64,000 bases of DNA from a virus. Taxonomy: Duplodnaviria > Heunggongvirae > Uroviricota > Caudoviricetes. The DNA lies in IMG/VR virus record IMGVR_UViG_3300037258_000549, positions 1-64,000 of that record. One strand, given 5' to 3'. The position numbers were made by a program, and so were the translations under genes. This document shows positions 9,810 to 50,218 of this stretch, piece by piece. Positions within the stretch are counted from its first letter, which is position 1, and each line of letters begins with the position of its first letter. Below the pieces are notes generated by a model that was given only the letters and a program-made list of their open reading frames with translations, was not told the origin of the DNA and ran no database searches.

Positions 9810-9810
9810 C

Positions 9811-16741: not shown

Positions 16742-16905
16742 ACGCCATATAAGGGTGGCTACGCAAGCCAGTCCTTCTCATGGTAACGGACCGTGCCAAT
16801 CCCAATCCGCCCCATCCGAGTTAGCCCAGCCCCTATCGCGCCGACCAGCCCTGCCTACACGCTCCCGCCCAACCCGGTCCGACGATCCCGTGCTATCCCA
16901 TCCGG
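16742..16905 (+). repeat. Block C1: inverted (C-rich, CCGAC) copy of the repeat element, with leader ACGCCATATAAGGGTGGCTACGCAAGCC
   Basis: TATAAG box then GGGTGGCTA then a CCGAC-rich tract. Same polarity as C2 and opposite to B1-B6. Confidence 0.6.
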
Positions 16906-16925
16906 AAAGTAATGGCAAAAGATCC

Positions 16926-17585: not shown

Positions 17586-17652
17586 TACTCTAGTAAGGAA
17601 AGCGCCCGGCCCCGCACGGGGAGCGGCTCAGCATCAAGTACATCGAGTTCTC

Positions 17653-25420: not shown

Positions 25421-26683
25421 ATGGCCTCTGAGGTGGCAAAACGCCTCCGTGATAGAAGGCTCTCCGTCTGGAATGAGGCGAAGAAAATCGCCGAGGACGC
25501 GGCCGGCGAGAACCGTTCCTTCAGCCCGGAAGAGCAGGGCCGCTGGGACGCGATGCAGGAAGAGATGTCCACCCTGGACACTCGCATCAAGGCCGTCCTG
25601 GACACCGAGAAGCGCGCTAAGGACGCCGACGACAGCTACAACGCGCTGACGGAAAAGCCGACTGAGCGCGGTACTCCGGCGCAGTCCGCTGCCGCGGACG
25701 AGATCCGCAAGTGGGCGCGGGGTGAGTCCGGTCCCAAGTCGATGGAGTTCCGGCACAACACCGACGCCACCGGTCCGATCAACTACCGCGTGCTGACTAC
25801 CGCCGGGCAGTCTAGTGGCACCAACGCCAGCTCCATCGTGCCGACCGACTTCTACGACATGCTGATCGCGCACCTCATTGAGGTGTCCGGCGTCATGCAG
25901 TGCGGACCTACCGTGCTGAACACCGGCGGCGGCGAGACGCTGCAGATCCCGAAGACCACGGCGCACACCGCGGTGACCGCGCAGTCGACGCAGGCGGGCA
26001 ACCTGCTGACCGGCGTTGACCCGGCGTTCTCGATGGCCACCCTGTCGGCGTATAAGTACGGCGTGCTCATCCAGGTGGCCCGCGAGCTGATTGACGATAC
26101 GGCGGTCGATTTGCTCGGCTACCTGGCCATGCAGGCCGGCCGTGCGCTCGGTAACAAGTTCGGTTCTGATCTGGTCAACAGCACCAGCGCGCCGACCGGG
26201 CTGCTCACCGGGACCGTGACCTCCAGCCCGGGTGTGACCGGGGCGACCACCGGCGCGGGCGGCGCGCCCAGCTACGCCAACCTGGTGGACCTGGAGTACT
26301 CGGTCATCGCGCCGTACCGTCAGTCCCGGTCCTGCTACTGGCTGGCCGCCGACAAGACAATTGGCGGGTTCCGCAAGATCACCGACACCGTCGGGCGCCC
26401 CATCTGGGAGCCTTCGGCGGTGCTCGGCTCGCCCGACTTGCTGCTCGGCAAGCCGCTCGTCGCTGACCCGTTCATGCCGGCCCAGGCGACCAGTGCGTTC
26501 TCCATCGTCTTCGGTGACTTCAGCCAGTTCTTCGTTCGCCTGGTGGGTGGCGTTCGATTCGAACGTAGTGACGACTTCGCCTTCGGTTCGGACCTCGTTT
26601 CGTTTAGGGCCATCCTTCGTGGGGACGGTACCCTAGTCGACCAAACCGGGGCGATAAAATCCTATAAAGGTGCATCTGCCTGA
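25421..26683 (+). CDS. Major capsid protein (HK97 fold) with an N-terminal delta/scaffold-like coiled coil
   Basis: RBS AAAGGAG then ATG. 420 aa. Charged coiled-coil N-terminus followed by HK97-like core. Lies downstream of the protease. Confidence 0.8.
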   Translation: MASEVAKRLRDRRLSVWNEAKKIAEDAAGENRSFSPEEQGRWDAMQEEMSTLDTRIKAVLDTEKRAKDADDSYNALTEKPTERGTPAQSAAADEIRKWARGESGPKSMEFRHNTDATGPINYRVLTTAGQSSGTNASSIVPTDFYDMLIAHLIEVSGVMQCGPTVLNTGGGETLQIPKTTAHTAVTAQSTQAGNLLTGVDPAFSMATLSAYKYGVLIQVARELIDDTAVDLLGYLAMQAGRALGNKFGSDLVNSTSAPTGLLTGTVTSSPGVTGATTGAGGAPSYANLVDLEYSVIAPYRQSRSCYWLAADKTIGGFRKITDTVGRPIWEPSAVLGSPDLLLGKPLVADPFMPAQATSAFSIVFGDFSQFFVRLVGGVRFERSDDFAFGSDLVSFRAILRGDGTLVDQTGAIKSYKGASA

Positions 26684-29830: not shown

Positions 29831-30526
29831 ATGAGCCTGGCCGTCCTAGTCCCGAGCAAGGGGCGCCCGCTGAATGCCGGGCGGCTGGCTCATGCCGTCC
29901 GCGCGACACACGGCGCGCAGTTCGCGAGCTTGACTTTCGCCCTTGATCATGACGAGCGGTCTTTCACTGACTACCTGATTCAGGTCCCGTCGTTGCCCGG
30001 TTACCATGTCGAGATGGTAGCGGCCCGGCCGCAGCGCATTGGTCCGATTCTTAACGTATTGGCCCCACCCCTGGCCCGGCACTATACGCATGTTGGTTTC
30101 ATGGGTGATGACCACCTGCCGCGTAGTCCCGGGTGGGATGAGCAGCTGGTTGATGCCCTCGGTGGCCGGCCGGGCGTTGCCTACGGGAACGACCTGGTTA
30201 AAGGCGAGACCATCCCGACGGCTGCGGTTATCTCCGCCGATATCGTTATGGCTCTCGGGTACTTGGTTCCGCCTAGACTAGAGCACTTGTATTTTGATGA
30301 TTTCTGGAAGGCCCTCGGGCAGGCGGTCGGTAACCTGGCCTACCTTCCGGGCGTAACGATTGAGCACTTGCACCCGATAGCGGGCACGGCTGACTGGGAC
30401 GACGGCTACCGGCGGGCTAACGACCCGGGACAGTTTGCCCGGGACAAGGCAGCGTACGACGAGTTCTTGAACGAGCAGTGGCCGGGTGACCTGGCCCGGT
30501 TGCGCCGGGAGCTGGGCAGTGACTGA
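29831..30526 (+). CDS. Glycosyltransferase (GT-A fold)
   Basis: VLVPSKGRP N-terminus and GDDH (DxD). Confidence 0.6.
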   Translation: MSLAVLVPSKGRPLNAGRLAHAVRATHGAQFASLTFALDHDERSFTDYLIQVPSLPGYHVEMVAARPQRIGPILNVLAPPLARHYTHVGFMGDDHLPRSPGWDEQLVDALGGRPGVAYGNDLVKGETIPTAAVISADIVMALGYLVPPRLEHLYFDDFWKALGQAVGNLAYLPGVTIEHLHPIAGTADWDDGYRRANDPGQFARDKAAYDEFLNEQWPGDLARLRRELGSD

Positions 30527-31109
30527 GTGGAAGCTGTTCGACGGCGACACCGCTTACGTTTCCACTTCGGAGTTTCACGCCGGCCGCGAGCGCGCTCCGC
30601 ATCTGGAGCAGCCCGGTCATCGTGACCGGTTGCACGCGGCGGCTGGCCTGGTCCGGTCTTGTGCTGCGCCGCAGCGAAGGTACGCTGACCTCGGCTGCGG
30701 TGACGGCGGCCTGCTCTCCTTGTGCCAGCACGTGTTTGAGCGGGCGTGGGGTTACGATTTCCAGCCGTCTAACGCGCCCGGCTGGGCGGAACGCGGAGTT
30801 ACCGCTGAGCAGCTAGACGTATTCGGGAAAGACTGGAACCGGGTTAACCTCGGCCATGTTGTTTCCTGTACTGAAGTGCTGGAGCACTTGACTGACCCGC
30901 ACGGGGCCTTGAGGCAAGTGCACAGCACCTGGCCCGTTGAGTACCTAGTCTGCTCTAGCCCGGTCAACGAGCATGCAGGTGCGCATGATGAATGTCACGC
31001 CTGGGCCTGGGATTATGACGGGTACGAGCAGTTGGTTACCGGGGCCGGGTTCCGGCTGATTGAGCACGTGCTGACCGGTTCTTACCAGTTGATCCGGGCG
31101 GTCGCATGA
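30519..31109 (+). CDS. SAM-dependent methyltransferase
   Basis: GTG overlap start. Motif I DLGCGDGG. Confidence 0.6.
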   Translation: MTEWKLFDGDTAYVSTSEFHAGRERAPHLEQPGHRDRLHAAAGLVRSCAAPQRRYADLGCGDGGLLSLCQHVFERAWGYDFQPSNAPGWAERGVTAEQLDVFGKDWNRVNLGHVVSCTEVLEHLTDPHGALRQVHSTWPVEYLVCSSPVNEHAGAHDECHAWAWDYDGYEQLVTGAGFRLIEHVLTGSYQLIRAVA

Positions 31110-31600
31110 TTGTATTCGATCTGGATGGCTGCCTGATTGACTCCGAGAAGATGATTCGGGCGTCCTACCGTGAAGCAGGTGTCGAGCCTCCGGGTAATTT
31201 TCTCTCGCTTGGTCATCATGACTGGATCGATGAAAACCGGGAGATGGTTCATGCGCGGAAGAACGCCGTGTACTTGCAGCGGCTTACCGAAGGGTGGTTT
31301 CGGCCGCTCCCGCCTTGGCGAACGGCTGAGATGCTGCATAAAGAAAGGCACGCGGTAGCATTGCTAACCATGGCGCCGGAGGGAGCAGTCCGGGTACTGG
31401 CGGAGTATGGTGCGCGGTCGTGGCCGTTTACGGCTGCCCGGTCTGTTTCTAGTTTGGTAGCAAAAACGGCCTGGCTGCGAGATTTTTCCGGCGGCGTGTA
31501 CGTCGATGACCAGCAGCACGTGACGATGCCGACGGGATGGCGGTTCGTGCACTGGACCGGGCAGGATGCCGACCAGTTGTACGCGCAGGTTACCCGGTGA
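31106..31600 (+). CDS. HAD-superfamily hydrolase/phosphatase
   Basis: ATGA overlap start. Motif I IVFDLDGCLIDSE. Confidence 0.6.
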   Translation: MIVFDLDGCLIDSEKMIRASYREAGVEPPGNFLSLGHHDWIDENREMVHARKNAVYLQRLTEGWFRPLPPWRTAEMLHKERHAVALLTMAPEGAVRVLAEYGARSWPFTAARSVSSLVAKTAWLRDFSGGVYVDDQQHVTMPTGWRFVHWTGQDADQLYAQVTR

Positions 31601-32478
31601 TACTGTGCGCGGGCGCAGCGTCGCAGCGCGTCGTCGAGGAGGCTGCCCGGCTGCGCGTGCACCAGGTGGTTGCGTCCCGGCGGCAAGTTGGCGAGACAGT
31701 GCCCGGCTACACCGGCTACACCAGTGAGACCCTCGTCGAGGCAGTGCACCGGCTGAGCGGCGGCACCACCCGGGTTGTACGTGACCACGGTGGTCCGTAC
31801 CAGAACGGTGACCCGGGTGACAACTGGACAGCCGCACTCGACGCTGATGCAGGTGCCGGGCTCGACGTGCTGCACCTGGACGTCTGTTACTTGCCCTATG
31901 ATGATCAGCCTGCCGAACTGATCCGGCTCTGCCGACGGTACCGGGATAAAGCTGTCATTGAGGTCGGCGGTGAGCGTGACACGCAGTCACGGCTGGACAT
32001 GCTGCTGGAAACCGCGCTGACCGTGTGCCAGCCGTCGGCAGCAGTCGCTGACTTCGGCGGTCATATCTGGGCTGACCGGCAGCATGGCCGGCTAATCAGT
32101 CAAGACCGGGCGGAAGAGGTTGTGGCAGCGTATGCCGTTCGGCAGGTAGCCGCCAAAGCGCATAATTTCGACTGGCTGGGTCAGCGGCGTTCTTATGGTT
32201 TGAATAGCCTTTATAATGTGGCGCCGGAATTCGGTAACGTGGAGATTGACGCCTGGCTCCACGTACTGTTTCACGCTGACGGGCAGTACCTGCTGAAATT
32301 CGCCTACGGGACGGGGTCGTGGCAGCGCTGGTTCAGTAAGGATGAAGGGACTTGGTTGGAGCGTGCTCGCGCAGCCCTCCGTTACCATCTTCATACACGA
32401 GAGGTCCGTCACGTCCTTGCCCGGTACGACGACAGCTACGTGCGGGAGGTGATCAGGGATGCCATCCGGCGTGGCTGA
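31597..32478 (+). CDS. Hypothetical enzyme in the sugar cassette
   Basis: GTGA overlap start. 293 aa, GC3-rich. Confidence 0.5.
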   Translation: MILCAGAASQRVVEEAARLRVHQVVASRRQVGETVPGYTGYTSETLVEAVHRLSGGTTRVVRDHGGPYQNGDPGDNWTAALDADAGAGLDVLHLDVCYLPYDDQPAELIRLCRRYRDKAVIEVGGERDTQSRLDMLLETALTVCQPSAAVADFGGHIWADRQHGRLISQDRAEEVVAAYAVRQVAAKAHNFDWLGQRRSYGLNSLYNVAPEFGNVEIDAWLHVLFHADGQYLLKFAYGTGSWQRWFSKDEGTWLERARAALRYHLHTREVRHVLARYDDSYVREVIRDAIRRG

Positions 32479-32827
32479 CTTGCTCGATGAGCTGCTAGCC
32501 CACACGCGGACCGACGTGCGCCCGTGGGGGTTCATGCGCTGCCTTGACGCGCCAGGCGGTAACCTTACCGTTAAGTACCTGGTTGTTCTTGAAGGTCAGC
32601 GGACTTCGCTGCAGCGGCATGACCGCAAAGACGAACTGCTGTTCATCCTTGACGGAGCTGGCCAGGTGGAAGCTGGCGGTATCAGTCATCAAGGTCTCGG
32701 GTGCGGGGTACGAGTGCCGCCAGGGACCGCTCACCGGGTCACCGGGCCGCTCGCCTACCTGGAAGTGTCGTCCTACGACGACAATACAGATACGGTCCGT
32801 TTTACTGATGACTACGGTCGCGCGTAG
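32459..32827 (+). CDS. Cupin-domain protein
   Basis: RPWGF...SLQRH...VPPGTAHR cupin motifs. Confidence 0.5.
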   Translation: MPSGVADLLDELLAHTRTDVRPWGFMRCLDAPGGNLTVKYLVVLEGQRTSLQRHDRKDELLFILDGAGQVEAGGISHQGLGCGVRVPPGTAHRVTGPLAYLEVSSYDDNTDTVRFTDDYGRA

Positions 32828-32851
32828 TGCTGAACGAGGAGGGTAGCCACC

Positions 32852-33616
32852 ATGCCATTGCCTGACCTGCCATTGTTCAGCTCGCATAATGTTGTGCTGC
32901 CGAACGGCAGGCTAACCGCCCCGGGTCTGCCTCTAGTATCTGATTCGTATGCCTGTCGTGCTGCACTGCGCGCGCTGGATCAGGTGTTCGGGGATGCCCG
33001 CGAGGGAGTTACCGTTGCTGATCTCGGCTCTCTAGAGGGTGGTTATGCCGCTGCGTTCGCCCGTGCCGGGTACGACGTAACTGGTTTTGAGGCAAGGCAG
33101 GAAAATCACGACAATGCGGTATGGCTTCAGGAGGCCCTGGGACTGCCGAACCTTCGCTTCGTCCAGGGTGACGCCCGCGAGCTACTAGAGGGCAGGCAGT
33201 TCGACGTAGTGTTCTGTTCCGGGCTGCTCTACCATCTCGACAAGCCAGTAGCTTTTCTGAAACTGCTTGGCCAGGTGACCCGGCGCATGCTCGTCTTGAA
33301 TACTAACGTCTCGCAGCCGGGCACGGGTCACCCGGAAACGGCGCACCATCCGGGCAGCGGGTGTGATTATGGCGCTTATGAAAACGAGGGACGTCAGGGG
33401 CACTGGTACCGCGAGAGTGTTACCCGCTGGGACAGTTACGGCAATTCGCTGTCGTTCTGGCTGCGTAGGGACGACCTCATGGACAGCCTCCGAGAAGACG
33501 CCGGGTTTGCCACGGTGACTGAAATACCCGACTGGCGTGACGGCTCTCTCAAGGATCATGTTCCGGGAGGTGCCGGGCCTTTCGCTGACCGGCGCATGTT
33601 CACGGCGCTCAAGTGA
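32852..33616 (+). CDS. Class I SAM-dependent methyltransferase
   Basis: RBS GAGGAGGG then ATG. VADLGSLEGG motif I. Confidence 0.6.
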   Translation: MPLPDLPLFSSHNVVLPNGRLTAPGLPLVSDSYACRAALRALDQVFGDAREGVTVADLGSLEGGYAAAFARAGYDVTGFEARQENHDNAVWLQEALGLPNLRFVQGDARELLEGRQFDVVFCSGLLYHLDKPVAFLKLLGQVTRRMLVLNTNVSQPGTGHPETAHHPGSGCDYGAYENEGRQGHWYRESVTRWDSYGNSLSFWLRRDDLMDSLREDAGFATVTEIPDWRDGSLKDHVPGGAGPFADRRMFTALK

Positions 33617-35109
33617 CCGCCTTCGTCATCCTCGCCGCCGGCCCCGGCACCCGGATGGGCCGGCCGGGCGATACGCTGCACAAGGCGCTAGTGCCATTGG
33701 GTAGCCAAGCGGTTATCTCGCGCCAAATCGGCCTCGCGCCGCCGGGCGCCCGGGTCATCGTGTGCACCGGCAGCCGGGCGCAGCAGGTCCGCGGCTACCT
33801 GGAGCTTGCCCATCCGGACCTGCCGGTGACGTTCGTGAACGTACCGGACTGGGACCAGCCGGAGAACGGGCCGGGAGCGTCGCTGCTGGCCGCGCGGGAT
33901 GCGATCAATGGCGACGACCTGGTTTTCACCGCATGCGACACGCTATGGCGGGCAGATGAGTCGCTGTGGAAGGCGGATGCGTCCTGGTCTGCCGTCGCGC
34001 CCGTCCCGGCGGGTACCCCTTTGGCGCGCTGGTGCCGGATCGGCGTTTTTGACGGCGACCGGGCCTGGGGGATTCTCGACAAGATCCCGGATTACGCCGG
34101 GGCAGGCGACGCGTACACCGGACTGTCTATGATCCTGCGGGGCGACCTAGGCGTCTTCTGGGCAGGCATCGAGAACTCGGGCCTGTCAGGCGGCGAGAAG
34201 CGAGACGTGGCGGGCCTGGCCGCGCTGACCATGAACGGCGCCCTGGCTGTACGGCGTATCACCTGGACGGACACCGGAGACGAGGCCGCCTACCAGCGCG
34301 CGGTCGCTGCCTGGTCTGGCTACGACTGGTCCAAGCCCGATGAGGTGACCTACGTGCTGCCCGAGCAGGGCCGCGTCGTCAAATTCCGGGCAGACCAGGG
34401 GTCAGTCACACGGCGCGTGCAGCGGCAGGCGACGATCGCTGCCGCGGTCCCAGTGCTGACAGGCACGCGTCCGGGCCTGTTTGCTTACGAGTACGTATCG
34501 GGGGTGACCGGTTACACTGCCGCTGAGAGCGATCCGGAGCTGGTGCCGCGGCTGCTGGACTGGGCGCAGGCGAACCTGTGGCGTCCCGTGTCGTTCGCAG
34601 ACGACCTCACGCGTACGTGTGACCTGTTCTACCGGGTCAAGACCACCGCTCGCACCGGGCAGCTCCGACCGGGGCTCCAGCCGGCTGCCTGGGATGCGGC
34701 CAGCCATGTTGACTGGGACAAGCTAGTACGAGGCTGCGTACCGGTTACTTTTCACGGCGACTTCAATCTCGGCAACGTGATCGTGATGCCGGACGGTGGA
34801 TTCCGCGGCATCGACTGGCGCGAAGACTTCGGCGGCAATACCACTTGGGGTGACCTGCGCTACGACCTTGGCAAGCTAGCCGCGGGGCTGATCGTGCACT
34901 GGGAAAACGCCCAGCGCGGTGACTTCCGCCCCTGGGAAGCCGGAAAGCAGCACCTGGCCAGGCTGGCAGACTGGTTGGGCGGGACGATTCCGCATGACGT
35001 GATGCTGATCGCGGCTTTGTCGCTGCTGAACTGCGCCCCGTTGCATGCCGCGCCGCTCGACGAGATACTGGTGGTCCGCGCTATCGCACTCCTAGAGGAA
35101 CTAGCTTGA
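33613..35109 (+). CDS. Bifunctional nucleotidyltransferase (N-terminal) and APH/choline-kinase-like kinase (C-terminal)
   Basis: FVILAAGPGTRMG (sugar-phosphate nucleotidyltransferase G-loop). C-terminal HGDFNLGNVIVMPDGGFRGIDWRE kinase motif. Confidence 0.6.
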   Translation: MTAFVILAAGPGTRMGRPGDTLHKALVPLGSQAVISRQIGLAPPGARVIVCTGSRAQQVRGYLELAHPDLPVTFVNVPDWDQPENGPGASLLAARDAINGDDLVFTACDTLWRADESLWKADASWSAVAPVPAGTPLARWCRIGVFDGDRAWGILDKIPDYAGAGDAYTGLSMILRGDLGVFWAGIENSGLSGGEKRDVAGLAALTMNGALAVRRITWTDTGDEAAYQRAVAAWSGYDWSKPDEVTYVLPEQGRVVKFRADQGSVTRRVQRQATIAAAVPVLTGTRPGLFAYEYVSGVTGYTAAESDPELVPRLLDWAQANLWRPVSFADDLTRTCDLFYRVKTTARTGQLRPGLQPAAWDAASHVDWDKLVRGCVPVTFHGDFNLGNVIVMPDGGFRGIDWREDFGGNTTWGDLRYDLGKLAAGLIVHWENAQRGDFRPWEAGKQHLARLADWLGGTIPHDVMLIAALSLLNCAPLHAAPLDEILVVRAIALLEELA

Positions 35110-35876
35110 AACCCGGTGACGTATCTTTGTGGATTGTCAGCTTTCGGCGGCTGGAGGCATTGCACCGCACGGTCAGCGACTGGCTCGGATCGTTTCCGTT
35201 TGAGGCGGTCAACATTATCGCTAATGACCCGGACGTCAGTTACGAGCTGGTTGAGACCGCCTTCCCGCAGGTGAAAGTCTGGCGTAATATTTTCCGGTCG
35301 CCCTGGGAAACGGGGAGCATTGCCTGGTGCTGGAACCAGTGCATGCGGCATACCTTTGAAACACGCCAATGGTGCCTAATGTCGCAGGATGATGTAGCTG
35401 TAACGCCTGGCTGGCCTGAGCTGGTCACCGGTGATCACTGGATGTACGTTGCACCGGTCGGGGACACGATCCAGCTGCAGTCGCTGGCGGGATTTAATGT
35501 CGTCGGCTGGTTCGACGAGCGGTTCCGCGCCATCGGCGGGCCGGAGAATGACTACCTGCTCCGCGCTTTGCAGGTCTGCCCGGACCAGCTGTCGGTGCAC
35601 GACGAGCATGTCTGGCAGCTGCGGCATAACGACGTTGGGCTGGCTGACTACTGGCACGGAGTGCCGAAAGACGGCGAGGTGGGCGCGACGCGGGCGAGCT
35701 TTAACGCTCCGTTCGCTGACGCTGAGTGCTTCGCCCGGTGGACGCAGAAATGGGGTACCCCCGTGGACGACTTGTTTAACGGGCATCATTACGATATAAT
35801 GCGCCAGCCGGGCTGGGACGAGATCGACTGGTACCCGTCGTTCACCCGGCGGCTAGCGGAATTGGGGCGACGGTGA
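35106..35876 (+). CDS. Putative glycosyltransferase
   Basis: TTGA overlap start. SQDD motif. Position in the cassette. Confidence 0.4.
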   Translation: MKPGDVSLWIVSFRRLEALHRTVSDWLGSFPFEAVNIIANDPDVSYELVETAFPQVKVWRNIFRSPWETGSIAWCWNQCMRHTFETRQWCLMSQDDVAVTPGWPELVTGDHWMYVAPVGDTIQLQSLAGFNVVGWFDERFRAIGGPENDYLLRALQVCPDQLSVHDEHVWQLRHNDVGLADYWHGVPKDGEVGATRASFNAPFADAECFARWTQKWGTPVDDLFNGHHYDIMRQPGWDEIDWYPSFTRRLAELGRR

Positions 35877-36778
35877 AAACGGCACTAGTTACCGGCCACC
35901 TAGGGTTCGCCGGGCGCCACTACAAGGCCGAGCTAGAAGTCCGCGGGTGGAAAGTAGACGGTATCGATCTAGGTAGCCCGCTCGGTGGTGACGCGCGCCG
36001 GTTCTTCCTGAGCAATGATTCACGCGGCTACGACCTCGTCGTTAACTGCGCAGCTGTCGTCGGCGGCCGGGAGGTCATTGATGGTGCGCCGCTTGCGCTG
36101 GCTGCCAACCTGGAGCTGGACGCAGGGTTTTTCCAGTGGGCAGCGCGCGTTAAGCCGGGCCGTATCGTCTACCTTTCTTCTTCAGCGGTTTACCCGGTAC
36201 ACCGGCAGCAGCTGCGTGACCACCGTAAGCTCGTCGAGAGCGACGTTGACCCGATGCTGGCCGGGGATACCGTCGGCATTCCCGATCAGTTGTACGGCTG
36301 GGCAAAACTCACCGGTGAGCACCTGGCCGTGCGCGCGCGCGCCGCGGGGTTGAGCGTTACAGTCGTCCGGCCGTTTTCTGGCTACGGCAGCGACCAAGAT
36401 AAAAGCTACCCGTTTCGCGCGTTCACTGAGCGCGCTAAGGCCCGCGAGGACCCGTTCGAGATCTGGGGCAGCGGCCAGCAGGTGCGCGACTTCATTCATA
36501 TTGACGACATCGTTGCCGCTACCCTACTCATGGTTCACGAAGACCGTGACGGGCCGGTGAACCTCGGCACCGGGCGCGCGGTGTCGATGAGTGCGCTGGC
36601 CCGGATGTTCTGCGCGGCTGCCGGGTACAGTCCGTTTATCCTGCCGCGCCGGGACGCACCGACCGGAGTCAGCTACCGGGTGGCCGACTCGACGGCACTT
36701 ACGGAGTTCTACCAGCCCCGGGTTCTCCTGGAAGACGGTATCCGGCGGGCGTTGCAGGAGCGCATCGGTGCCCGGTAG
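35873..36778 (+). CDS. NAD-dependent epimerase/dehydratase (SDR)
   Basis: GTGA overlap start. ALVTGHLGFAGRH (GxxGxxG) and YGWAK (YxxxK). Confidence 0.7.
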   Translation: MKTALVTGHLGFAGRHYKAELEVRGWKVDGIDLGSPLGGDARRFFLSNDSRGYDLVVNCAAVVGGREVIDGAPLALAANLELDAGFFQWAARVKPGRIVYLSSSAVYPVHRQQLRDHRKLVESDVDPMLAGDTVGIPDQLYGWAKLTGEHLAVRARAAGLSVTVVRPFSGYGSDQDKSYPFRAFTERAKAREDPFEIWGSGQQVRDFIHIDDIVAATLLMVHEDRDGPVNLGTGRAVSMSALARMFCAAAGYSPFILPRRDAPTGVSYRVADSTALTEFYQPRVLLEDGIRRALQERIGAR

Positions 36779-37406
36779 TCAGGACCTGCCGGTCCGGCAT
36801 TACTATCACATCTACGCGGACGGTGCCTGGCCTGCGCCGGTGCGTGAGCACTTTCGGTCCCTAGGCCGGTACGCGCTAGCGACAGATATGACGGTTGGTA
36901 TAGTCGGGGCACCCGGAGACCGGGAGAAGGTCCGGGAGATGATTACCTTGCGTGCGCGCAGCCAGGCGCTCCCGGTTCCGGTGCACTGGGTGGAGGCGGA
37001 TCACGGCTGGGAGCAGCTAACCCTCCAGCAAGTCTACGATGACGTGCACCAGGCTCCGGGTGACTACGCCGTTTTTTACGCGCACACGAAAGGTGCTTTC
37101 GTAGACTCGGAGTTTAACGCTTACTGGCGCTGGTCGATCACCCGGGAACTGGTCGGGGAGTGGCGGCGCTGCACGGTGCTGCTTGCTGACCATGACATGG
37201 TGGGCTGCCACTGGATTAAGGCGCCAGAACAGGGTCACCCTAGCCGGCCGATGATCTTCGCCGGTAATTTCTGGTGGGCGACGGCGGCGTACCTGCGCCA
37301 GCTGCCACCACCGGGCAATGAAACCCGGTATGCTGCCGAAGACTGGGTAGCCCAGGGTAACCCAAAGGTTTATGATATGTTGCCCGGTTTCCCGGAGTAC
37401 TCGTAA
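36768..37406 (+). CDS. Hypothetical protein, paralog of the 16926 gene
   Basis: GTG start overlapping the epimerase stop. Shares the RHYYHIY-DG, YAHTKGA, HDMVGCHW and AGNFWWA motifs. Confidence 0.5.
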   Translation: MPGSQDLPVRHYYHIYADGAWPAPVREHFRSLGRYALATDMTVGIVGAPGDREKVREMITLRARSQALPVPVHWVEADHGWEQLTLQQVYDDVHQAPGDYAVFYAHTKGAFVDSEFNAYWRWSITRELVGEWRRCTVLLADHDMVGCHWIKAPEQGHPSRPMIFAGNFWWATAAYLRQLPPPGNETRYAAEDWVAQGNPKVYDMLPGFPEYS

Positions 37407-37413
37407 AAGGGGA

Positions 37414-37707
37414 ATGACTGTGCCGGATAACCGGGTACTGATGACCGGCGGCGGGACTGATTACCGTCCCGCGGGGGGCTGCCCGGTGGCCGGCGAGAAG
37501 TACGGGAATGGTGAGTTCATGGCGCACCAGGGAGACCCGGATTCTTTCCTGGTGGCTGAGGCGCGGGTGAAAGACGGCAGCGCAAGCGTGCGCGTCGCGG
37601 TGTGGGCCTGTGTTTTCTGCCAGGCAGAGCTGATCGGCCTCGGTAAGCCGGAAGAGCTACTGGATGCGCAGGATTTCAGCTGGTTCGAGCGGAGCAGGGG
37701 AGGCTAG
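37414..37707 (+). CDS. Small Cys-containing hypothetical protein
   Basis: RBS AAAGGGG. ATG 37414 or GTG 37420. Confidence 0.35.
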   Translation: MTVPDNRVLMTGGGTDYRPAGGCPVAGEKYGNGEFMAHQGDPDSFLVAEARVKDGSASVRVAVWACVFCQAELIGLGKPEELLDAQDFSWFERSRGG

Positions 37708-37762
37708 TCGGCATGAGTTCGCCGCTGGTGAGCATCATCTGCTCTTGAACGGGTGCTATTAA

Positions 37763-38392
37763 GTGTGCATAGTTGAAGGGTGCAACAAGCCGGTGCGATG
37801 CCGTAACCTGTGCTCGAAGCATTATAGGCGCTGGTTGCGGTACGGTGACCCACTAGGAGGTAAACCGTCTCCGGTACCGAGTCCGCTTGACGGATTGTGC
37901 ACGATTGACGACTGTAATATTTTGCATTATGCTCATGGCTGGTGTGAGATGCATTACGCGCGCTGGAGAAGGTCTGGCGATCCGTTGGTTGCGAGAAAGC
38001 GCCGTAAGGCACCGGTTGATGGTTATTGTACAGTATTTGAATGCAAGGAACAGCACCTAGCACGCGGTTTGTGTAATATGCACTATCAGCGATGGAGGGC
38101 GCATGGAGATCCGCTAATCTTTCTGGTTACGCCTTCTGGTCCGGGGGATCACCAATGGAAAGGCATGGATGCGGGTTACCTTCCGAAACACCGTCGAGTC
38201 GAGACAGCGCGTGGTAAAGCCAAGTTTGGGTCCTGTATTTGGGAAGATCTAACTGATAATTGCAAAGGTATCATGGATTGGGCTAATATGACGGGAAACT
38301 ACGACAGCGTCTGGGACTTTGAGCCTATGTGCCGAAAACATCATAATCGGTACGATGGGGCTAGGCGGAGATGTAATGTTGCCGTTGTGTAG
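37763..38392 (+). CDS. HNH endonuclease with three N-terminal CxxC...HYxRWxRxGDP zinc-binding repeats; AT-richer than its neighbours
   Basis: Three tandem repeats of C..C......C..HY.RW.R.GDP. C-terminal CRKHHNRYDG (HNH). Codons are visibly AT-richer than the flanking genes. Confidence 0.55.
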   Translation: MCIVEGCNKPVRCRNLCSKHYRRWLRYGDPLGGKPSPVPSPLDGLCTIDDCNILHYAHGWCEMHYARWRRSGDPLVARKRRKAPVDGYCTVFECKEQHLARGLCNMHYQRWRAHGDPLIFLVTPSGPGDHQWKGMDAGYLPKHRRVETARGKAKFGSCIWEDLTDNCKGIMDWANMTGNYDSVWDFEPMCRKHHNRYDGARRRCNVAVV

Positions 38393-39005
38393 TATCATAA
38401 CACCTACGTGGAAGAGAAATTCGCTTCTTCTGAACAGGTGCATCCCTAGCGTTGATGCGCAAGTATACCCGAACGTCGAGCACCTGATTATTTCGGATGG
38501 CCCTGATCCGGAGCTGGCAGAAAAGATGTTCCCGCTGCAGCGGGCGGGCCAGCGCAGCCGGTGGTTCCTTCAGCTAGCTGAGCACGACCCGGCGCCGCAC
38601 TGGGGGCACCTGGCCCGGTCGCACGGAATTGAGCTGGCAGCCGGGGAGCTGATCGGTTACGTCGATGACGATGACGCGCTGCGCCCGCAGCACGTCGAGT
38701 TGCTGGCTGCCGCGCTGGCGGCGCACCCGGAAGCGGGCTGGGCCTGCTCCGTTATGGCTTCGCACCGGCCGCCGGACGGAACAGTGACGGAGATCGGCCA
38801 CGGGCCGCCGTCCGCGGGCAATATCGGTACCCCGGTAATCGTTCACCGCCGTGAGATCCTGGAGCACGGCACGTGGGGACCGCCGTCAGCCCTGGAAGAC
38901 TGGGAAATGGTTAACCGCTGGCTGCACGTGGGAATCCCGCACGTCAAGGTGGAAGAGGTTACTGTTGACGTGTGGCCGTCGATTTATTACGGTCCTGGTC
39001 ACTAA
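38376..39005 (+). CDS. Family 2 glycosyltransferase
   Basis: RBS AGGCGGAG then ATG. CSIITPTWKRN...EHLIISDGPD and YVDDDD. Confidence 0.65.
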   Translation: MLPLCSIITPTWKRNSLLLNRCIPSVDAQVYPNVEHLIISDGPDPELAEKMFPLQRAGQRSRWFLQLAEHDPAPHWGHLARSHGIELAAGELIGYVDDDDALRPQHVELLAAALAAHPEAGWACSVMASHRPPDGTVTEIGHGPPSAGNIGTPVIVHRREILEHGTWGPPSALEDWEMVNRWLHVGIPHVKVEEVTVDVWPSIYYGPGH

Positions 39006-39020
39006 GCGGAGAGAGTCGTT

Positions 39021-39185
39021 ATGCTCGCGGTCATCGCTGGAGTCGTCTTTATTATCACTGCTGTCCTCGGCTGGACGGACAAGTCCATCTCGGTGCCGCA
39101 CTTGCTAGCCCTCGGCTTCATCGGCCTGGCCTTCCTGGCCGGCCACCTGGTCTTCCGGCTCTGGGGACCTAACGGGTACTGGTAG
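39021..39185 (+). CDS. Small two-TM membrane protein (54 aa)
   Basis: RBS GCGGAGAGAG then ATG. Not in the ORF track. Confidence 0.35.
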   Translation: MLAVIAGVVFIITAVLGWTDKSISVPHLLALGFIGLAFLAGHLVFRLWGPNGYW

Positions 39186-39280
39186 AAAAGGAGCGAGATC
39201 GTGCCGAATCTGCTGTACATCCTGCTGGGCGTGCTGGTAATCAATACCAGAATACGCGCCCTTCTTTCCGCTAAGGCGGC

Positions 39281-39523
39281 ATGATGATCGACCCGAGGGT
39301 GGTCGGCCTGGTGAAGTTCGTGGAGAGCCTGCAGCCGGGCGAGCGGGACAAGGGACTGTTCTGGGCCGCGTGCCGGGGATACGCTGATGACCTGGATACT
39401 GCTCCGCTGGTCACCGCCGCGGTCAAGACCGGCCTGCCCCGGGACAAGGCGCAGAGTACAGTGGAGTCAGCGGCTAAGCACATCGCTAAGGCGCGGGCGG
39501 AGCATCAAAAGGTGAGCGGATGA
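39281..39523 (+). CDS. Hypothetical protein
   Basis: ATG start. Confidence 0.4.
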   Translation: MMIDPRVVGLVKFVESLQPGERDKGLFWAACRGYADDLDTAPLVTAAVKTGLPRDKAQSTVESAAKHIAKARAEHQKVSG

Positions 39524-39778
39524 TGAGGCAGCCATGAAGGACCTGACCGAGGAACTGCGCCAGGACACCCAGCCGATCGCGTGGGGCTCGGGCCTGGTCG
39601 ACTACGAGCCGGCGCCGTACATCCCGCCGCTCGCCCGGGAAGAAAACAGCGGCGAGGTAGACGGGGCAGGTCGGCCGCTCGCTTACGGATGAGCTAGCCA
39701 GCGTTGCTATTATAAAACTCCAGCTCACCGCGGCCGTTAACCCACGGAGCCGGAGAGCCCGTATAGACGGGTACCCTC

Positions 39779-40813
39779 TTGGCAGCCTTGCGGATTCTCG
39801 CACTCCACGACGGTGGTTCGGGTTGCATGTATTACCGGGTAGAGCTTCCACTGCGGCAACTTGAAAAGCACGGCCATGAGGTAACCCTCCGGTCGGTTAA
39901 CGATGACGTCGGCGCTACGGTTACCGCGCGCGACATGGCCGGCTACGACGTCCTGCTCGGGCAGCGGCTTAACGTGCACCGCGGGATGGAGGCATGGCGC
40001 CGCGCCCGCGGGCCGTTCTCCCGGCTGGTTTACGATACCGACGACGACTGCTTCACCGTGAACCTGGAGAACTGGGCGGCCTACAAGCTCTATAGTCAGC
40101 CGGAAACCCAGGACGCGGTGACGCACATGGCGCAGGTTTCTGACCTGGTTACGGTGACTACCGAGCACCTGGCCGCGGTGATGCGCGAGCATACCGGCGC
40201 GGCGAACGTCACGGTGCTGCCTAATTGCATTCCGGCTTTCGTGCTGGACATGGCCCGCGAGCCGCGTGCCCGCCCGGCGATCGGCTACCAGGGCGGGGCT
40301 AGTCACGGGGCGGACGTCGGGGTGGTGGCCGCCGCGGTACGCCGGTTCCTGAAGCGCTTCCCCGGCTGGGACCTGCGGCTGGGCGGCACTGACTTCCGGC
40401 CGACGTTCCGGGCCGGCGACCGGGCACTGTTCAGCCCGTGGGTGCCGGTTTACGATGACCCGGCTGGTTACTACGCGACGCTTGATTTCGATATTGGGCT
40501 GGCCCCGCTGGCCGGGAAAGCCTTCGACGACTCGAAATCGGCGATTAAGGCGATCGAGTACGGGGCCAGGGGTATTCCGTGCATCGCCACCGATTGCGCG
40601 GTATACCGCGAATTTGTCCGGCACGGTGAGAATGGCTTCCTGGTTAAGGCCCCGCATGAATGGCTGAAATTTTTGTCGATCCTGGCCGGTGATGATACCT
40701 TGCGCGCTAAAATGGGCGATCAGGCCCGGGAAGACGCCCGGAGCTGGACTGTCGAAGGCAACTACGGGCGCTGGGAACAGGCGTACGAATGTTTGTTTAC
40801 CAGGCGGGACTAG
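39779..40813 (+). CDS. GT-B fold glycosyltransferase (GT1/GT4-like)
   Basis: C-terminal KSAIKAIEYGARGIPCIATDCAVYREFVRHGENGFLV (EX7E-like). TTG start (alternative Met at MYYRV). Confidence 0.6.
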   Translation: MAALRILALHDGGSGCMYYRVELPLRQLEKHGHEVTLRSVNDDVGATVTARDMAGYDVLLGQRLNVHRGMEAWRRARGPFSRLVYDTDDDCFTVNLENWAAYKLYSQPETQDAVTHMAQVSDLVTVTTEHLAAVMREHTGAANVTVLPNCIPAFVLDMAREPRARPAIGYQGGASHGADVGVVAAAVRRFLKRFPGWDLRLGGTDFRPTFRAGDRALFSPWVPVYDDPAGYYATLDFDIGLAPLAGKAFDDSKSAIKAIEYGARGIPCIATDCAVYREFVRHGENGFLVKAPHEWLKFLSILAGDDTLRAKMGDQAREDARSWTVEGNYGRWEQAYECLFTRRD

Positions 40814-41880: not shown

Positions 41881-42426
41881 GTGAGCAAGCGCACGCAGCA
41901 GATTCGCGACATGATCAGCACAACGATCAGTCTCGACAGGGAATGGCTGGGCCGGACGGGGGCCGGGCGCGACGAACCAGAACTTTACCTGCCCTGGATG
42001 CCGTTTTCCTGGCCCGACTTCATCGCACTGGTCGCTGAAGCGCTACCAGAGACAACAGGTGATAAATTCCTCGACATCGGAGCGGGCGTCGGCAGCAAGA
42101 TGATGCTCGCCGAGGAAATCTTCGGGCTGGATGTTCGCGGTATCGAGCGCGTTCCCGAGTACGTGAAAGAAGCGCGCCAGCGCGGGCTGATCGTTACCGA
42201 GGCGGACGCGCTCGGCTGGGATGGCTACTGCGACTACGACCTGATTTTCTTCAACCGGCCGTTTTTCAGTCAGCAGCGGCAAGCTGAGCTGGAGCAGCAG
42301 GTATGGGCAGACATGAAGCCTGGTGCGGTCGTCATCGGCGTTAACCTGCTCGCGCCGCCGCCCGCGACGTGGAACCTCCTCCTCGATGACGGTGAAGTCC
42401 GCCGCTGGGTCCTGCAAAAGAATTAA
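41881..42426 (+). CDS. SAM-dependent methyltransferase
   Basis: GTG start. Motif I FLDIGAGVGSKM. Confidence 0.55.
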   Translation: MSKRTQQIRDMISTTISLDREWLGRTGAGRDEPELYLPWMPFSWPDFIALVAEALPETTGDKFLDIGAGVGSKMMLAEEIFGLDVRGIERVPEYVKEARQRGLIVTEADALGWDGYCDYDLIFFNRPFFSQQRQAELEQQVWADMKPGAVVIGVNLLAPPPATWNLLLDDGEVRRWVLQKN

Positions 42427-50217: not shown

Positions 50218-50218
50218 T

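What the first reader, a model, noticed from the sequence alone, without database searches (positions are those of the whole stretch)
29831..40813. Thirteen-gene sugar-activation and glycosylation cassette inside the virion structural region
- **Tightly coupled genes** (ATGA/GTGA/TTGA overlaps): a GT-A glycosyltransferase, two class I SAM methyltransferases, a HAD phosphatase, a cupin, a fused nucleotidyltransferase/APH-like kinase (ILAAGPGTRMG ... HGDFNLGNV..IDWRE), a putative glycosyltransferase, an SDR epimerase/dehydratase, a GT2 glycosyltransferase and a GT-B glycosyltransferase, plus an unknown 293-aa enzyme.
- **Capacity.** The cassette can take a free sugar (or choline-like head group) through kinase and NDP-activation steps, then epimerisation/methylation, to transfer.
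- **Position.** It sits between the capsid genes and Thr/Ala/Gly-rich minor-tail and fibre proteins with long Thr-rich repeats, which are plausible O-glycosylation acceptors.
- Virion glycosylation has been described for some mycobacteriophages. A self-contained activation pathway of this size, including O-methylation, is uncommon.
Basis: partly seen in the sequence, partly recalled or inferred. Interest (0 to 1): 0.7.

Follow-up and report, generated by a model that had tools for sequence, protein, structure and literature searches.

The report
Phage sugar-activation and glycosylation gene cassette
A soil phage related to phages of actinobacteria carries, among its head genes, enzymes to make its own activated sugar plus several sugar- and methyl-adding enzymes; they most likely coat the virus particle with a methylated glycan, by an uncharacterised route.

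Summary
Window 29831-40813 encodes, on one strand:
- four glycosyltransferases (two GT-A-type, one GT2, one GT-B);
- two SAM methyltransferases;
- an SDR epimerase;
- a four-gene sugar-nucleotide module.

Ten genes (29831-37406) overlap by 4-20 nt or sit 24 nt apart. Corrections:
- One of the "13 genes" is an HNH homing endonuclease.
- A third methyltransferase lies outside the range (41881-42426).

The fused nucleotidyltransferase/kinase has the architecture of AfhE, the phage enzyme that makes UDP-arabinose. It is a distant relative of the RB69 version (hhalign 97% on the kinase part). With the HAD phosphatase and a mannose-phosphate-isomerase-type cupin, this suggests a route from a ketose phosphate through a bisphosphate to an NDP-sugar, rather than salvage of a free sugar or choline.

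The cassette is conserved next to the capsid gene in about 20 related metagenomic contigs. The four-gene core recurs in many other phages and some bacteria. The acceptor is not established. Virion proteins are most likely (about 0.5). DNA glycosylation is a real rival, because a sister clade has the core inside its replication module.

I rate it a new variant of a known kind.

The parts
29831..30526 (+). g01, 231 aa: GT-A-like glycosyltransferase (phrog_14945 family)
   Evidence: PHROG hit 2e-45. 2267 homologues in the representative library. An alignment profile weakly hits the GT2 enzymes PglI and DPMS. D93-D94 are invariant. In other proteins this domain is fused to GT2 or Methyltransf_23 domains. 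Homologues are annotated as glycosyltransferase in Streptomyces and Arthrobacter phages.
30519..31109 (+). g02, 196 aa: class I SAM methyltransferase (Methyltransf_23)
   Evidence: Pfam 41.4 bits against a cut-off of 27. Overlaps g01 by 8 nt. GT-plus-Methyltransf_23 fusions exist elsewhere.
31106..31600 (+). g03, 164 aa: HAD-superfamily phosphatase
   Evidence: Weak hits to Pfam Hydrolase and TIGR01509. Motifs FDLDGC and VDD are present in the translation. HAD genes occupy this position in other clades.
31597..32478 (+). g04, 293 aa: GatZ/KbaZ-UxaE-type class II aldolase-fold barrel, a putative ketose(-phosphate) C4 epimerase
32459..32827 (+). g05, 122 aa: cupin of the type II phosphomannose-isomerase kind
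   Evidence: PF01050 31 bits against a cut-off of 23.6. Matches the C-terminal domain of TIGR01479 GMP_PMI. RPW and S-x-Q-x-H-(4)-E are conserved in 55 homologues.
32852..33616 (+). g06, 254 aa: class I SAM methyltransferase (Methyltransf_11/25)
   Evidence: Pfam 40.5 bits. Conserved in 10 related loci.
33613..35109 (+). g07, 498 aa: bifunctional N-terminal nucleotidyltransferase plus C-terminal APH-fold kinase (AfhE-like architecture)
   Evidence: NTP_transf_3 55 bits and APH 31 bits. G10, G12, R14, K24 and G382, D383, N388, D401-W402-R403 are invariant; H381 is in at least 90% of sequences. hhalign to the RB69 gp52 kinase part gives 97% probability, E 1e-10; to the gp53 NT part 83%. The PDB profile hits IPCT, RmlA, GlmU, HddC, LicC and APH(2'').
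35106..35876 (+). g08, 256 aa: GT-A-fold glycosyltransferase; narrow family and the best conserved cassette gene
   Evidence: AF2 pLDDT 94. Foldseek hits WrtF fucosyltransferase, chondroitin polymerase, TarP, GalNAc-T2 and SpsA. S93-Q-D95-D96 are invariant. 68 homologues at 44% identity or more.
35873..36778 (+). g09, 301 aa: extended SDR NDP-sugar epimerase/reductase
   Evidence: PF01370 104 bits. Nearest solved structures: GDP-mannose 3,5-epimerase 9e-18 and GDP-L-fucose synthase 1.6e-16. NCBIfam: Fcl 2e-22 and heptose 6-epimerase 5e-13, both far below cut-off.
36768..37406 (+). g10, 212 aa: DUF8361, function unknown; has a paralogue at 16755-17585
   Evidence: Precomputed PF27674. No hit in my Pfam copy, NCBIfam, PHROGs or PDB. 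Absent from related cassettes. The paralogue is visible in the translation.
37420..37707 (+). g11, 95 aa: unknown, not conserved; probably not part of the pathway
   Evidence: No family hits. Found only in the identical contig L002.
37793..38392 (+). g12, 199 aa: HNH homing endonuclease inserted in the cassette; not a pathway gene
   Evidence: phrog_1271 and phrog_5351 'HNH endonuclease', about 1e-17. Absent from relatives. A GIY-YIG endonuclease interrupts the homologous cassette in L168.
38376..39005 (+). g13, 209 aa: GT2 glycosyltransferase
   Evidence: PF00535 44 bits against a cut-off of 23.3. Conserved in relatives at 45-55% identity.
39021..39692 (+). Three small ORFs (54, 79 and 52 aa); the first is hydrophobic. 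Role unknown.
   Evidence: Gene calls from L002. Hydropathy maximum 2.36 for the 54-aa ORF.
39827..40813 (+). g14, 328 aa: GT-B (GT4-like) glycosyltransferase
   Evidence: Glyco_trans_1_4 39 bits and Glycos_transf_1 33 bits. Weak MshA/BshA-type NCBIfam hits. About 42% identical in relatives; in L003 it sits at the cassette's 5' end.
   Evidence: MetW 23.8 bits and PCMT 21.9 bits, just above cut-offs. 34-36% identical counterpart in L003 and L004.
25421..26683 (+). Major capsid protein: context and candidate acceptor
   Evidence: phrog_10 at 1.9e-56. C-terminus ...KSYKGASA; relatives end ...GPAT...GAAT or ...GNAA.
46681..52414 (+). Two proteins (1178 and 731 aa) with about 22-aa Thr/Ala/Gly/Pro repeats: candidate acceptors, role unverified
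   Evidence: Translations. Tandem repeats of 66, 126 and 258 nt. 23% Ser+Thr. No significant PHROG or Pfam family.

Best explanation
**What it is.** This is a late-operon, phage-encoded glycosylation system with its own sugar-nucleotide supply.

**Step 1, inferred.** A four-gene core makes an NDP-aldose from a central ketose phosphate.
- g04, a GatZ/UxaE-type barrel, epimerises the ketose phosphate at C4.
- g05, a PMI-type cupin, isomerises ketose to aldose.
- The kinase half of g07 phosphorylates C1 to give a sugar bisphosphate.
- g03, the HAD, removes the distal phosphate.
- The nucleotidyltransferase half of g07 makes the NDP-sugar.
- One concrete possibility is fructose-6-P to tagatose-6-P to talose- or galactose-6-P to the 1,6-bisphosphate to the 1-phosphate to the NDP-hexose. 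A heptose version is equally possible.

**Step 2, inferred.** The SDR g09 epimerises the NDP-sugar.

**Step 3, inferred.** Four soluble glycosyltransferases (g01, g08, g13, g14) build a short glycan. Two or three SAM methyltransferases (g02, g06, perhaps g15) O-methylate it.

**Step 4, the least certain.** The acceptor is a virion protein made from the same operon: the capsid subunit and/or the Thr-rich repeat proteins. This would parallel mycobacteriophages Corndog and Che8.

**Shown versus inferred.** Enzyme folds and families, motifs, synteny and conservation are shown. Substrates, order of steps, nucleotide, sugar identity and acceptor are inferred.
For: - **Enzyme identities:**
- **Catalytic motifs kept in g07:** the NT motif residues and the kinase residues G382, D383, N388 and D401-W402-R403 are invariant in 18 diverse homologues; H381 is in at least 90%.
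- **Link to AfhE:** the g07 profile matches the RB69 gp52 kinase part at 97% probability and the gp53 NT part at 83%. PMC13326640 describes the AfhE/AfhF logic: isomerase, then 1-kinase, then HAD phosphatase, then pyrophosphorylase.
- **Core co-occurrence:** among 152 loci with a g07 homologue, a g04 homologue lies within 7 kb in 89, the cupin in 63 and SDR-family enzymes in 57. Two HAD families occur in 40 and 38.
- **Full cassette next to the capsid gene:** seen in about 20 related contigs and in a 250-kb contig.
- **Tight overlaps:** these imply co-expression with the structural genes.
- **No lipid-linked machinery:** no transmembrane enzyme, flippase, polymerase or polyprenyl-phosphate transferase is present.
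- **GT-methyltransferase coupling:** g01-type domains are fused to Methyltransf_23 elsewhere.
- **Actinobacteriophage ancestry:** terminase homologues are overwhelmingly from phages of Actinomycetota.
- **Precedent:** Corndog has an O-methyltransferase plus three GT genes between its portal and protease genes (PMC4351075). Glycans on capsid and tail-tube C-termini are reported for mycobacteriophages (Freeman 2023, as cited in PMC12619734, and PMC12363180).
Against: - There is no direct evidence for any substrate or acceptor.
- The GTs and methyltransferases show no detectable similarity to Corndog gp35-38 or Che8 gp108-110.
- The only characterised enzyme with the g07 architecture feeds DNA arabinosylation.
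- In a sister clade (g07 40-53% identical) the core sits inside the replication and nucleotide-metabolism module, next to a C5 DNA methylase.
- Both GT-A and GT-B phage enzymes can glycosylate DNA, and such clusters can include epimerases and APH phosphotransferases (bioRxiv 10.1101/2023.12.21.572611).
- g01 homologues in Streptomyces phages lie among replication genes.
- The HAD assignment is below family cut-offs.
- The repeat proteins are not shown to be virion components.
Confidence: 0.5

Rival explanations
1. **DNA hypermodification.** The same NDP-sugar and glycosyltransferases decorate a hydroxylated pyrimidine (5hmC, 5hmU or 5hoC) in phage DNA to block restriction, as in RB69/DLP3 arabinosylation or the methyltransferase-TET-GT pathways.
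For: - g07 is a distant homologue of RB69 gp52:53 and has the same architecture (PMC13326640).
- Clade B phages place HAD, GatZ-like, cupin and NT/kinase between the recombination genes and dUTPase_2, dCMP deaminase and a C5 methyltransferase.
- GT-A and GT-B DNA glycosyltransferases with epimerase and APH neighbours are documented.
- The window encodes a genuine C5 cytosine methyltransferase at 13834-14592 on the minus strand.
Against: - In the window and about 20 relatives, the cassette lies in the structural operon next to the capsid gene, not with replication genes.
- tblastn with the RB69 thymidylate-synthase homologue found nothing significant in the window.
- No TET/JBP or thymidylate-synthase domain appeared in the Pfam scans of the window ORFs I tested. 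About 27 kb of the source contig could not be seen.
- As far as I know, O-methylated sugars have not been reported on DNA.
- The clade B partner, a 482-aa orphan, is absent from the window.
Confidence: 0.17
2. **Modification of a host envelope polymer or lipid.** The target would be teichoic acid, arabinogalactan, a glycolipid or similar. This would resemble prophage TarP or O-antigen conversion, and would alter receptors or immune recognition of infected or lysogenic cells.
For: - The g08 model resembles TarP, a phage-borne wall-teichoic-acid GT.
- More distant g07 homologues sit in polysaccharide-type clusters with PseB-like dehydratases, DegT aminotransferases and GT1/GT2 genes in bacteria and marine phages.
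- The nearest solved relatives of the NT domain include CDP-alcohol-forming cytidylyltransferases: IPCT and LicC.
Against: - No membrane-embedded enzyme, flippase, polymerase or initiating phosphotransferase is present.
- The genes overlap within a late structural operon rather than forming a moron or lysogeny module.
- No integrase or repressor was seen in the window. This is an incomplete scan.
Confidence: 0.13
3. **The first reader's chemistry.** g07 would be a salvage enzyme of the AmgK-MurU or LicC-LicA type. It would phosphorylate a free sugar or amino-alcohol and activate it directly. The HAD, GatZ-like and cupin proteins would serve other steps.
For: - APH-fold kinases include choline, MurNAc/GlcNAc and glucosamine kinases, from my own knowledge and from Table 1 of PMC13326640.
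- JGI annotators called some family members 'choline kinase'.
- LicC appears among the PDB hits.
Against: - The genes most often found with g07 are a ketose-epimerase-like barrel, a PMI-type cupin and HAD phosphatases. That set is what a sugar-phosphate route needs.
- The one characterised enzyme of this architecture found in the literature search here (AfhE, PMC13326640) phosphorylates a sugar 5-phosphate at C1.
- No LicD-type or other phosphocholine transferase hit was obtained for any cassette gene.
Confidence: 0.15

Closest known systems
AfhE/AfhF/arabinose-5-P isomerase pathway of phages HY126, RB69 (gp51, gp52:53, gp55) and DLP3 (gp81-83), which makes UDP-arabinofuranose
   Same: - A fused N-terminal nucleotidyltransferase and C-terminal APH-fold kinase.
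- A HAD phosphatase and a sugar-phosphate isomerase encoded alongside.
- Followed by several glycosyltransferases.
- Distant homology to g07 detected.
   Different: - The isomerase here is a cupin plus a GatZ-like barrel, not an SIS-fold KpsF/GutQ-type enzyme.
- An SDR epimerase and O-methyltransferases are added.
- No thymidylate-synthase-like 5hoC synthase was found.
- The genes lie in the head module, not among replication genes.
- The sugar is probably not arabinose.
Virion glycosylation systems of mycobacteriophages Corndog (gp35-38) and Che8 (gp108-110)
   Same: - Actinobacteriophage lineage.
- Soluble GTs plus an O-methyltransferase.
- In Corndog the genes are embedded in the structural operon.
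- Capsid C-terminal tails end in small Ser/Thr-containing residues.
   Different: - No sequence similarity between the enzymes.
- Corndog and Che8 have 3-4 genes and rely on host sugar nucleotides. Here there are about 11 genes including a complete activation pathway.
- Glycosylation here is not demonstrated.
Bacterial ADP/GDP-heptose pathway (GmhA, HldE or HddA/HddC, GmhB, HldD)
   Same: - The same logic: ketose phosphate to aldose phosphate, then 1-kinase, HAD phosphatase, nucleotidyltransferase and SDR epimerase.
- g09 weakly hits the heptose 6-epimerase model.
- The NT profile hits HddC-like 6jq8.
   Different: Apart from the HAD phosphatase, the steps use different folds or only distantly related families: cupin instead of SIS, and an APH-fold kinase instead of a ribokinase-like or GHMP kinase. 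An additional GatZ-like barrel is present. No model reaches its cut-off.
GatZ/KbaZ, UxaE and tagatose 4-epimerase family (PF08013 and relatives)
   Different: g04 is 293 aa against 410-490 aa, so it lacks the C-terminal extension. It does not itself reach PF08013 in Pfam. Its substrate is unknown.
Phage methyltransferase/5mYOX/glycosyltransferase DNA hypermodification clusters (Pyle et al., bioRxiv 10.1101/2023.12.21.572611)
   Same: GT-A or GT-B enzymes paired with an epimerase, and sometimes with an APH phosphotransferase. A C5 methyltransferase is present in the window.
   Different: No 5mYOX or thymidylate-synthase homologue was found. The methyltransferase is 15 kb away on the other strand. 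The cassette is flanked by structural genes.

Membership tests
AfhE-type bifunctional sugar-phosphate 1-kinase / NDP-sugar pyrophosphorylase | N-terminal nucleotidyltransferase domain with the GxGxR...K motif | tested here: met
   NTP_transf_3 55 bits. G10, G12, R14 and K24 are invariant.
AfhE-type bifunctional sugar-phosphate 1-kinase / NDP-sugar pyrophosphorylase | C-terminal APH-fold kinase with the catalytic HxDxxxxN motif and a downstream Asp | tested here: met
   APH 31 bits. In the HGDFNxGN motif, G382, D383 and N388 are invariant and H381 is in at least 90% of sequences; D401-W402-R403 of IDWRE are invariant.
AfhE-type bifunctional sugar-phosphate 1-kinase / NDP-sugar pyrophosphorylase | Detectable homology to a described member (RB69 gp52:53) | tested here: met
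   hhalign: kinase part 97% probability, E 1e-10; NT part 83%, E 9e-6. tblastn alone does not find it, so the relationship is distant.
AfhE-type bifunctional sugar-phosphate 1-kinase / NDP-sugar pyrophosphorylase | Partner HAD phosphatase (AfhF-like) encoded nearby | tested here: inconclusive
   g03 has HAD motifs and weak hits below cut-off. It shows no similarity to RB69 gp51. HADs of three different kinds accompany the family.
AfhE-type bifunctional sugar-phosphate 1-kinase / NDP-sugar pyrophosphorylase | SIS-fold arabinose-5-phosphate isomerase partner, with arabinose-5-P as substrate | tested here: not met
   No SIS hit was obtained for any cassette gene. RB69 gp55 finds nothing in the window. 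A cupin and a GatZ-like barrel take its place.
Actinobacteriophage virion glycosylation system (Corndog/Che8 type) | Phage-encoded soluble glycosyltransferases, with or without an O-methyltransferase, in or next to the structural operon | tested here: met
   compared with Corndog.
Actinobacteriophage virion glycosylation system (Corndog/Che8 type) | Homology to Che8 gp108-110 or Corndog gp35-38 | tested here: not met
   blastp of all pairs gives no hit better than E = 0.017, over 27 residues.
Actinobacteriophage virion glycosylation system (Corndog/Che8 type) | O-linked glycans on capsid or tail-tube subunits | not testable with these tools
   Needs mass spectrometry of virions. Only a short Ser/Thr-containing capsid C-terminus can be noted.
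GatZ/KbaZ-UxaE ketose 4-epimerase / class II aldolase superfamily (g04) | TIM barrel superposable on GatZ or UxaE, with the conserved Asp-His metal/catalytic pair | tested here: met
GatZ/KbaZ-UxaE ketose 4-epimerase / class II aldolase superfamily (g04) | Passing Pfam PF08013 and full-length architecture (about 420 aa) | tested here: not met
   No Pfam hit for the window protein. Only some homologues carry PF08013. Length is 293 aa.
Type II phosphomannose isomerase cupin (g05) | PF01050 above cut-off, with the RPWG and SLQxHxxRxE-type signature | tested here: met
   31 bits against 23.6. Conserved R-P-W and S-x-Q-x-H-(4)-E.
GT-A glycosyltransferase (g08) | Rossmann-like GT-A fold with an Asp-Asp metal motif | tested here: met
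   AF2 pLDDT 94. Top Foldseek hits (ranks 1-36) are GT-A enzymes. D95-D96 are invariant. No Pfam family hit.
Phage DNA glycosylation cluster (ThyA-like or methyltransferase/5mYOX plus GT) | Pyrimidine hydroxylase or hydroxymethylase (ThyA homologue or TET/JBP) near the GTs | tested here: not met
   None found in the window by tblastn or in the Pfam scans of the ORFs I tested. The unseen 27 kb of the contig remains untested.

The most novel reading that the evidence does not exclude
HAD, GatZ-like barrel, PMI-type cupin and nucleotidyltransferase/kinase together form a previously undescribed and widespread biosynthetic route. It runs from a central ketose phosphate to a rare NDP-sugar through a C4-epimerised, C1-phosphorylated bisphosphate intermediate. 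Phages of several lineages carry it so that they can glycosylate either virions (this clade) or DNA (the sister clade) independently of host sugar-nucleotide pools. This phage would then make a methylated oligosaccharide coat on its head and/or repeat proteins.
Probability: 0.35. Interest if true: 0.75.

Novelty: new variant of a known kind. Interest (0 to 1): 0.55.

Why it matters
**Known background.** Virion glycosylation in phages is known from only a few mycobacteriophages, which, as far as I know, borrow host sugar nucleotides. The AfhE-type activation enzyme is known only from DNA arabinosylation.

**What this cassette adds.**
- It joins the two: an AfhE-like activation module with different isomerases, together with four transferases and O-methyltransferases, sitting among head genes.
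- If the product decorates virions, it would be the most self-sufficient phage protein-glycosylation system described so far.
- It would point to glycan shielding or adhesion in soil actinobacteriophages.

**Wider value.** The four-gene core is common in metagenomic phages and some bacteria, and I found no description of it. It is a tractable target for discovering a new NDP-sugar pathway. It could also serve as a marker for predicting whether a phage glycosylates protein or DNA.

Tried and rejected
- **Near-identity DNA search** of the cassette against GenBank phages: no match.
- **tblastn of g07 against phages:** one uncultured, unannotated marine virus only.
- **Orthology with the proven virion-glycosylation enzymes of Corndog and Che8:** rejected.
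- **Similarity of window DNA to RB69's 5hoC synthase, HAD, arabinose-5-P isomerase and GTs:** none.
- **Recovering the rest of the 90.8-kb source contig**, to look for base-hydroxylating genes: failed. Three look-ups found no exact gene product on record.
- **The conserved 482-aa partner of clade B:** no Pfam, PDB or phage hit and absent from the window, so not pursued.
- **DUF8361 (g10):** no PDB, PHROG or NCBIfam information. Only four weak tblastn hits, in a Synechococcus phage and an uncultured phage.
- **The minus-strand ORF 14574-15536** next to the C5 methyltransferase: judged a non-coding high-GC artefact, given its Arg/Pro/Cys-rich translation and lack of hits.
- **Promoter and terminator scans** of 26.5-46 kb: no more sites than in shuffled sequence.
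- **Not available:** Freeman et al. 2023 could not be read. The AlphaFold-database fold library was unavailable.
- **A lipid-linked polysaccharide pathway:** considered unlikely, for lack of any membrane enzyme.

Full report
**Setting.** The window is part of a 90.8-kb metagenomic contig. The same sequence also occurs on a 21.8-kb contig from run SRR11832711. It is a tailed phage. The morphogenesis genes are:
- large terminase at 17338-19338;
- a 992-aa portal fusion at 21241-24219;
- protease at 24241-25275;
- major capsid protein at 25421-26683;
- a connector at 27370-27792;
- a gp6-like head-tail adaptor much further on, at 54284-55231.

No GenBank phage is close. There is no megablast hit, and the capsid protein is under 30% identical to anything. 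Terminase homologues come overwhelmingly from phages of Mycobacterium, Gordonia, Arthrobacter, Rhodococcus and other Actinomycetota. G+C is about 62-64%. An actinobacterial host is therefore likely, though not proven.

**The observation.** The stretch 29831-40813 is as described.
- Pfam hits above curated cut-offs identify two class I SAM methyltransferases, a mannose-phosphate-isomerase-type cupin, a fused NTP_transf_3/APH protein, an extended SDR epimerase, a GT2 and a GT-B glycosyltransferase.
- The HAD is weak in profile searches but carries the DxDG and DD motifs.
- The first gene (231 aa) belongs to phrog_14945 'glycosyltransferase' at 2e-45. That family has more than 2000 members. Some are fused to GT2 domains or to Methyltransf_23 domains, which mirrors the adjacent g01-g02 pair here.
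- The 256-aa 'putative GT' has no Pfam family. A confident AlphaFold model (pLDDT 94) is a GT-A fold resembling WrtF fucosyltransferase, chondroitin polymerase, TarP and GalNAc-T2. It has an invariant Asp-Asp pair.
- Junctions from g01 to g10 overlap by 4-20 nt, with one 24-nt spacer.

Three corrections apply.
- 37793-38392 is an HNH homing endonuclease. Together with the DUF8361 gene and a 95-aa ORF, it is absent from related cassettes.
- The tight coupling ends at 37406.
- A third methyltransferase-like gene lies at 41881-42426.

**The unknown 293-aa enzyme.**
- A profile of 40 homologues hits E. coli GatZ (2fiq) and a Sinorhizobium relative.
- The model has pLDDT 96.
- An Arg-Asp-His triad and a His-x-Asp motif are invariant.

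It is therefore a shortened member of the ketose C4-epimerase branch of the class II aldolase superfamily.

**The fused enzyme and the pathway logic.**
- g07 keeps the nucleotidyltransferase signature and the kinase catalytic motifs across 18 diverse homologues.
- A 2026 paper (PMC13326640) describes AfhE of phage HY126 and its counterparts RB69 gp52:53 and DLP3 gp82. These have an N-terminal pyrophosphorylase and a C-terminal APH-like kinase. The kinase phosphorylates arabinose-5-P at C1. A HAD phosphatase (AfhF) removes the 5-phosphate. The N-terminal domain then makes UDP-arabinofuranose.
- Profile comparison links g07 to the RB69 kinase part at 97% probability (E 1e-10) and to the NT part at 83%.
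- Around g07 the window encodes a HAD, a PMI-type cupin (RPW and S-x-Q-x-H-(4)-E conserved) and the GatZ-like barrel.

I infer a route from ketose phosphate through C4 epimerisation, ketose-aldose isomerisation, C1 phosphorylation and distal dephosphorylation to nucleotidyl transfer, followed by the SDR. The nearest relatives of the SDR are GDP-mannose 3,5-epimerase, GDP-fucose synthase and ADP-heptose 6-epimerase. The design is that of the ADP-heptose and Afh pathways, built largely from different folds. The identities of the sugar and the nucleotide cannot be derived from sequence. The NT profile hits cytidylyl-, thymidylyl-, uridylyl- and guanylyl-transferases alike.

**Conservation.** I fetched 166 loci carrying g07 relatives from viral and genome collections.
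- Among 152 with usable flanks, a GatZ-like gene lies within 7 kb in 89, the cupin in 63 and SDR-family enzymes in 57. Two HAD families occur in 40 and 38. A shikimate-dehydrogenase-like protein occurs in 37. Methyltransf_23, DegT, GT2 and GT1 genes also recur.
- The core is thus a widespread module for which I found no description.
- In about 20 contigs whose capsid protein is about 60% identical to the window's, the full cassette (g01, g02, g04-g09, g13, g14) lies beside the capsid gene.
- A 250-kb contig has a similar set, interrupted by a GIY-YIG endonuclease.

**What is glycosylated?** This is the weak point.

Evidence for virion proteins:
- The cassette sits inside the late structural operon, with overlapping genes.
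- All enzymes appear soluble, and there is no lipid-carrier machinery.
- The lineage is actinobacteriophage.
- Corndog provides a precedent: an O-methyltransferase and three GTs sit between its portal and protease genes. Glycans on capsid and tail-tube C-termini are reported.
- Candidate acceptors exist. One is the capsid C-terminal tail (...KSYKGASA; relatives end ...GPAT or ...GAAT). The others are two proteins of 1178 and 731 aa with about 22-aa Thr/Ala/Gly/Pro repeats and 23% Ser+Thr.

Evidence against:
- There is no similarity to the Corndog or Che8 enzymes.
- The only characterised relative of g07 serves DNA arabinosylation.
- In a sister clade (g07 40-53% identical) the HAD, GatZ-like, cupin and g07 genes are followed by a conserved 482-aa orphan, dUTPase_2, dCMP deaminase and a C5 DNA methylase, all within the replication module.
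- Phage GT-A and GT-B enzymes with epimerase and APH neighbours do glycosylate 5hmC DNA.

In the window I found a genuine C5 methyltransferase at 13834-14592 on the minus strand. I found no thymidylate-synthase-like or TET/JBP gene. About 27 kb of the contig could not be retrieved.

**Verdict.**
- The cassette is real.
- Virion glycosylation is the best explanation, at about 0.5. DNA glycosylation stands at about 0.17 and host-envelope modification at about 0.13.
- It is a new variant of known kinds: phage glycosylation cassettes and AfhE-type activation.
- The conserved four-gene core is the most interesting and most testable element.

Noticed in passing
window 16755-17585 (+): A 276-aa ORF just upstream of the terminase is a paralogue of the cassette's DUF8361 gene (36768-37406). 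Shared motifs are HxYHxYxDG, Y(T/A)H(S/T)KGA, DxVGCHW and FAGNFWWA. Function is unknown, and neither copy has a hit in my Pfam copy.
   Followed up: partly
window 13834-14592 (-): A genuine C5 cytosine DNA methyltransferase (motifs CSGAGG, PPCQ, ENV) on the opposite strand. The adjacent 320-aa minus-strand ORF (14574-15536) looks like a non-coding high-GC artefact.
   Followed up: partly
window 9742-11481 (+): A phage-encoded Ro60-like protein (TROVE plus Ro60 vWA domains; phrog_850 at 5e-94).
   Followed up: no
window 46681-52414 (+): Two large proteins (1178 and 731 aa) are built from tandem repeats of about 22 aa, TAGLAAATGTAQPPAVRLDAxV. The DNA periods are 66, 126 and 258 nt, in a 70-73% G+C stretch. 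One also has an Ig-like segment. They precede the gp6-like head-tail adaptor, so they may be head fibres or decoration rather than tail fibres.
   Followed up: partly
L005, L022-L033 (for example L005:8030-16133): A sister phage clade has HAD, GatZ-like, cupin and NT/kinase followed by a conserved 480-520-aa orphan protein with no Pfam, PDB or phage hit. Then come dUTPase_2, dCMP deaminase, a C5 DNA methylase and DUF932, all within the replication module. This is a candidate new DNA-glycosylation system.
   Followed up: partly
window 21241-24219 (+): The portal ORF is 992 aa. The best-scoring portal-domain stretch covers only residues 1-225 (3 stretches reported). A C-terminal extension of about 700 aa carries a second phrog hit at residues 775-857, and a weak 'thymidylate synthase' phrog_85 hit at 447-571 that is probably spurious.
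   Followed up: no
window 37793-38392 and L168:13207-13725: Homing endonucleases of different families interrupt the homologous cassettes at different points: HNH here, GIY-YIG in the 250-kb contig.
   Followed up: no
L169 (Streptomyces phage Annadreamy, 8381-10105) and L170 (Arthrobacter phage Mimi): Homologues of g01 in isolated Streptomyces and Arthrobacter phages sit beside a second GT and a small cytidylyltransferase-like 'nucleotidyl transferase'. They lie among replication and RNA-repair genes. Their acceptor is likewise unknown.
   Followed up: no
window 58961-59035 and 60038-60110 (-): ARAGORN calls a tRNA-Pyl(CTA) and a tRNA-Ile(GAT) on the minus strand, opposite to most genes. The amber-suppressor-like call may be a false positive or a suppressor tRNA.
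   Followed up: no
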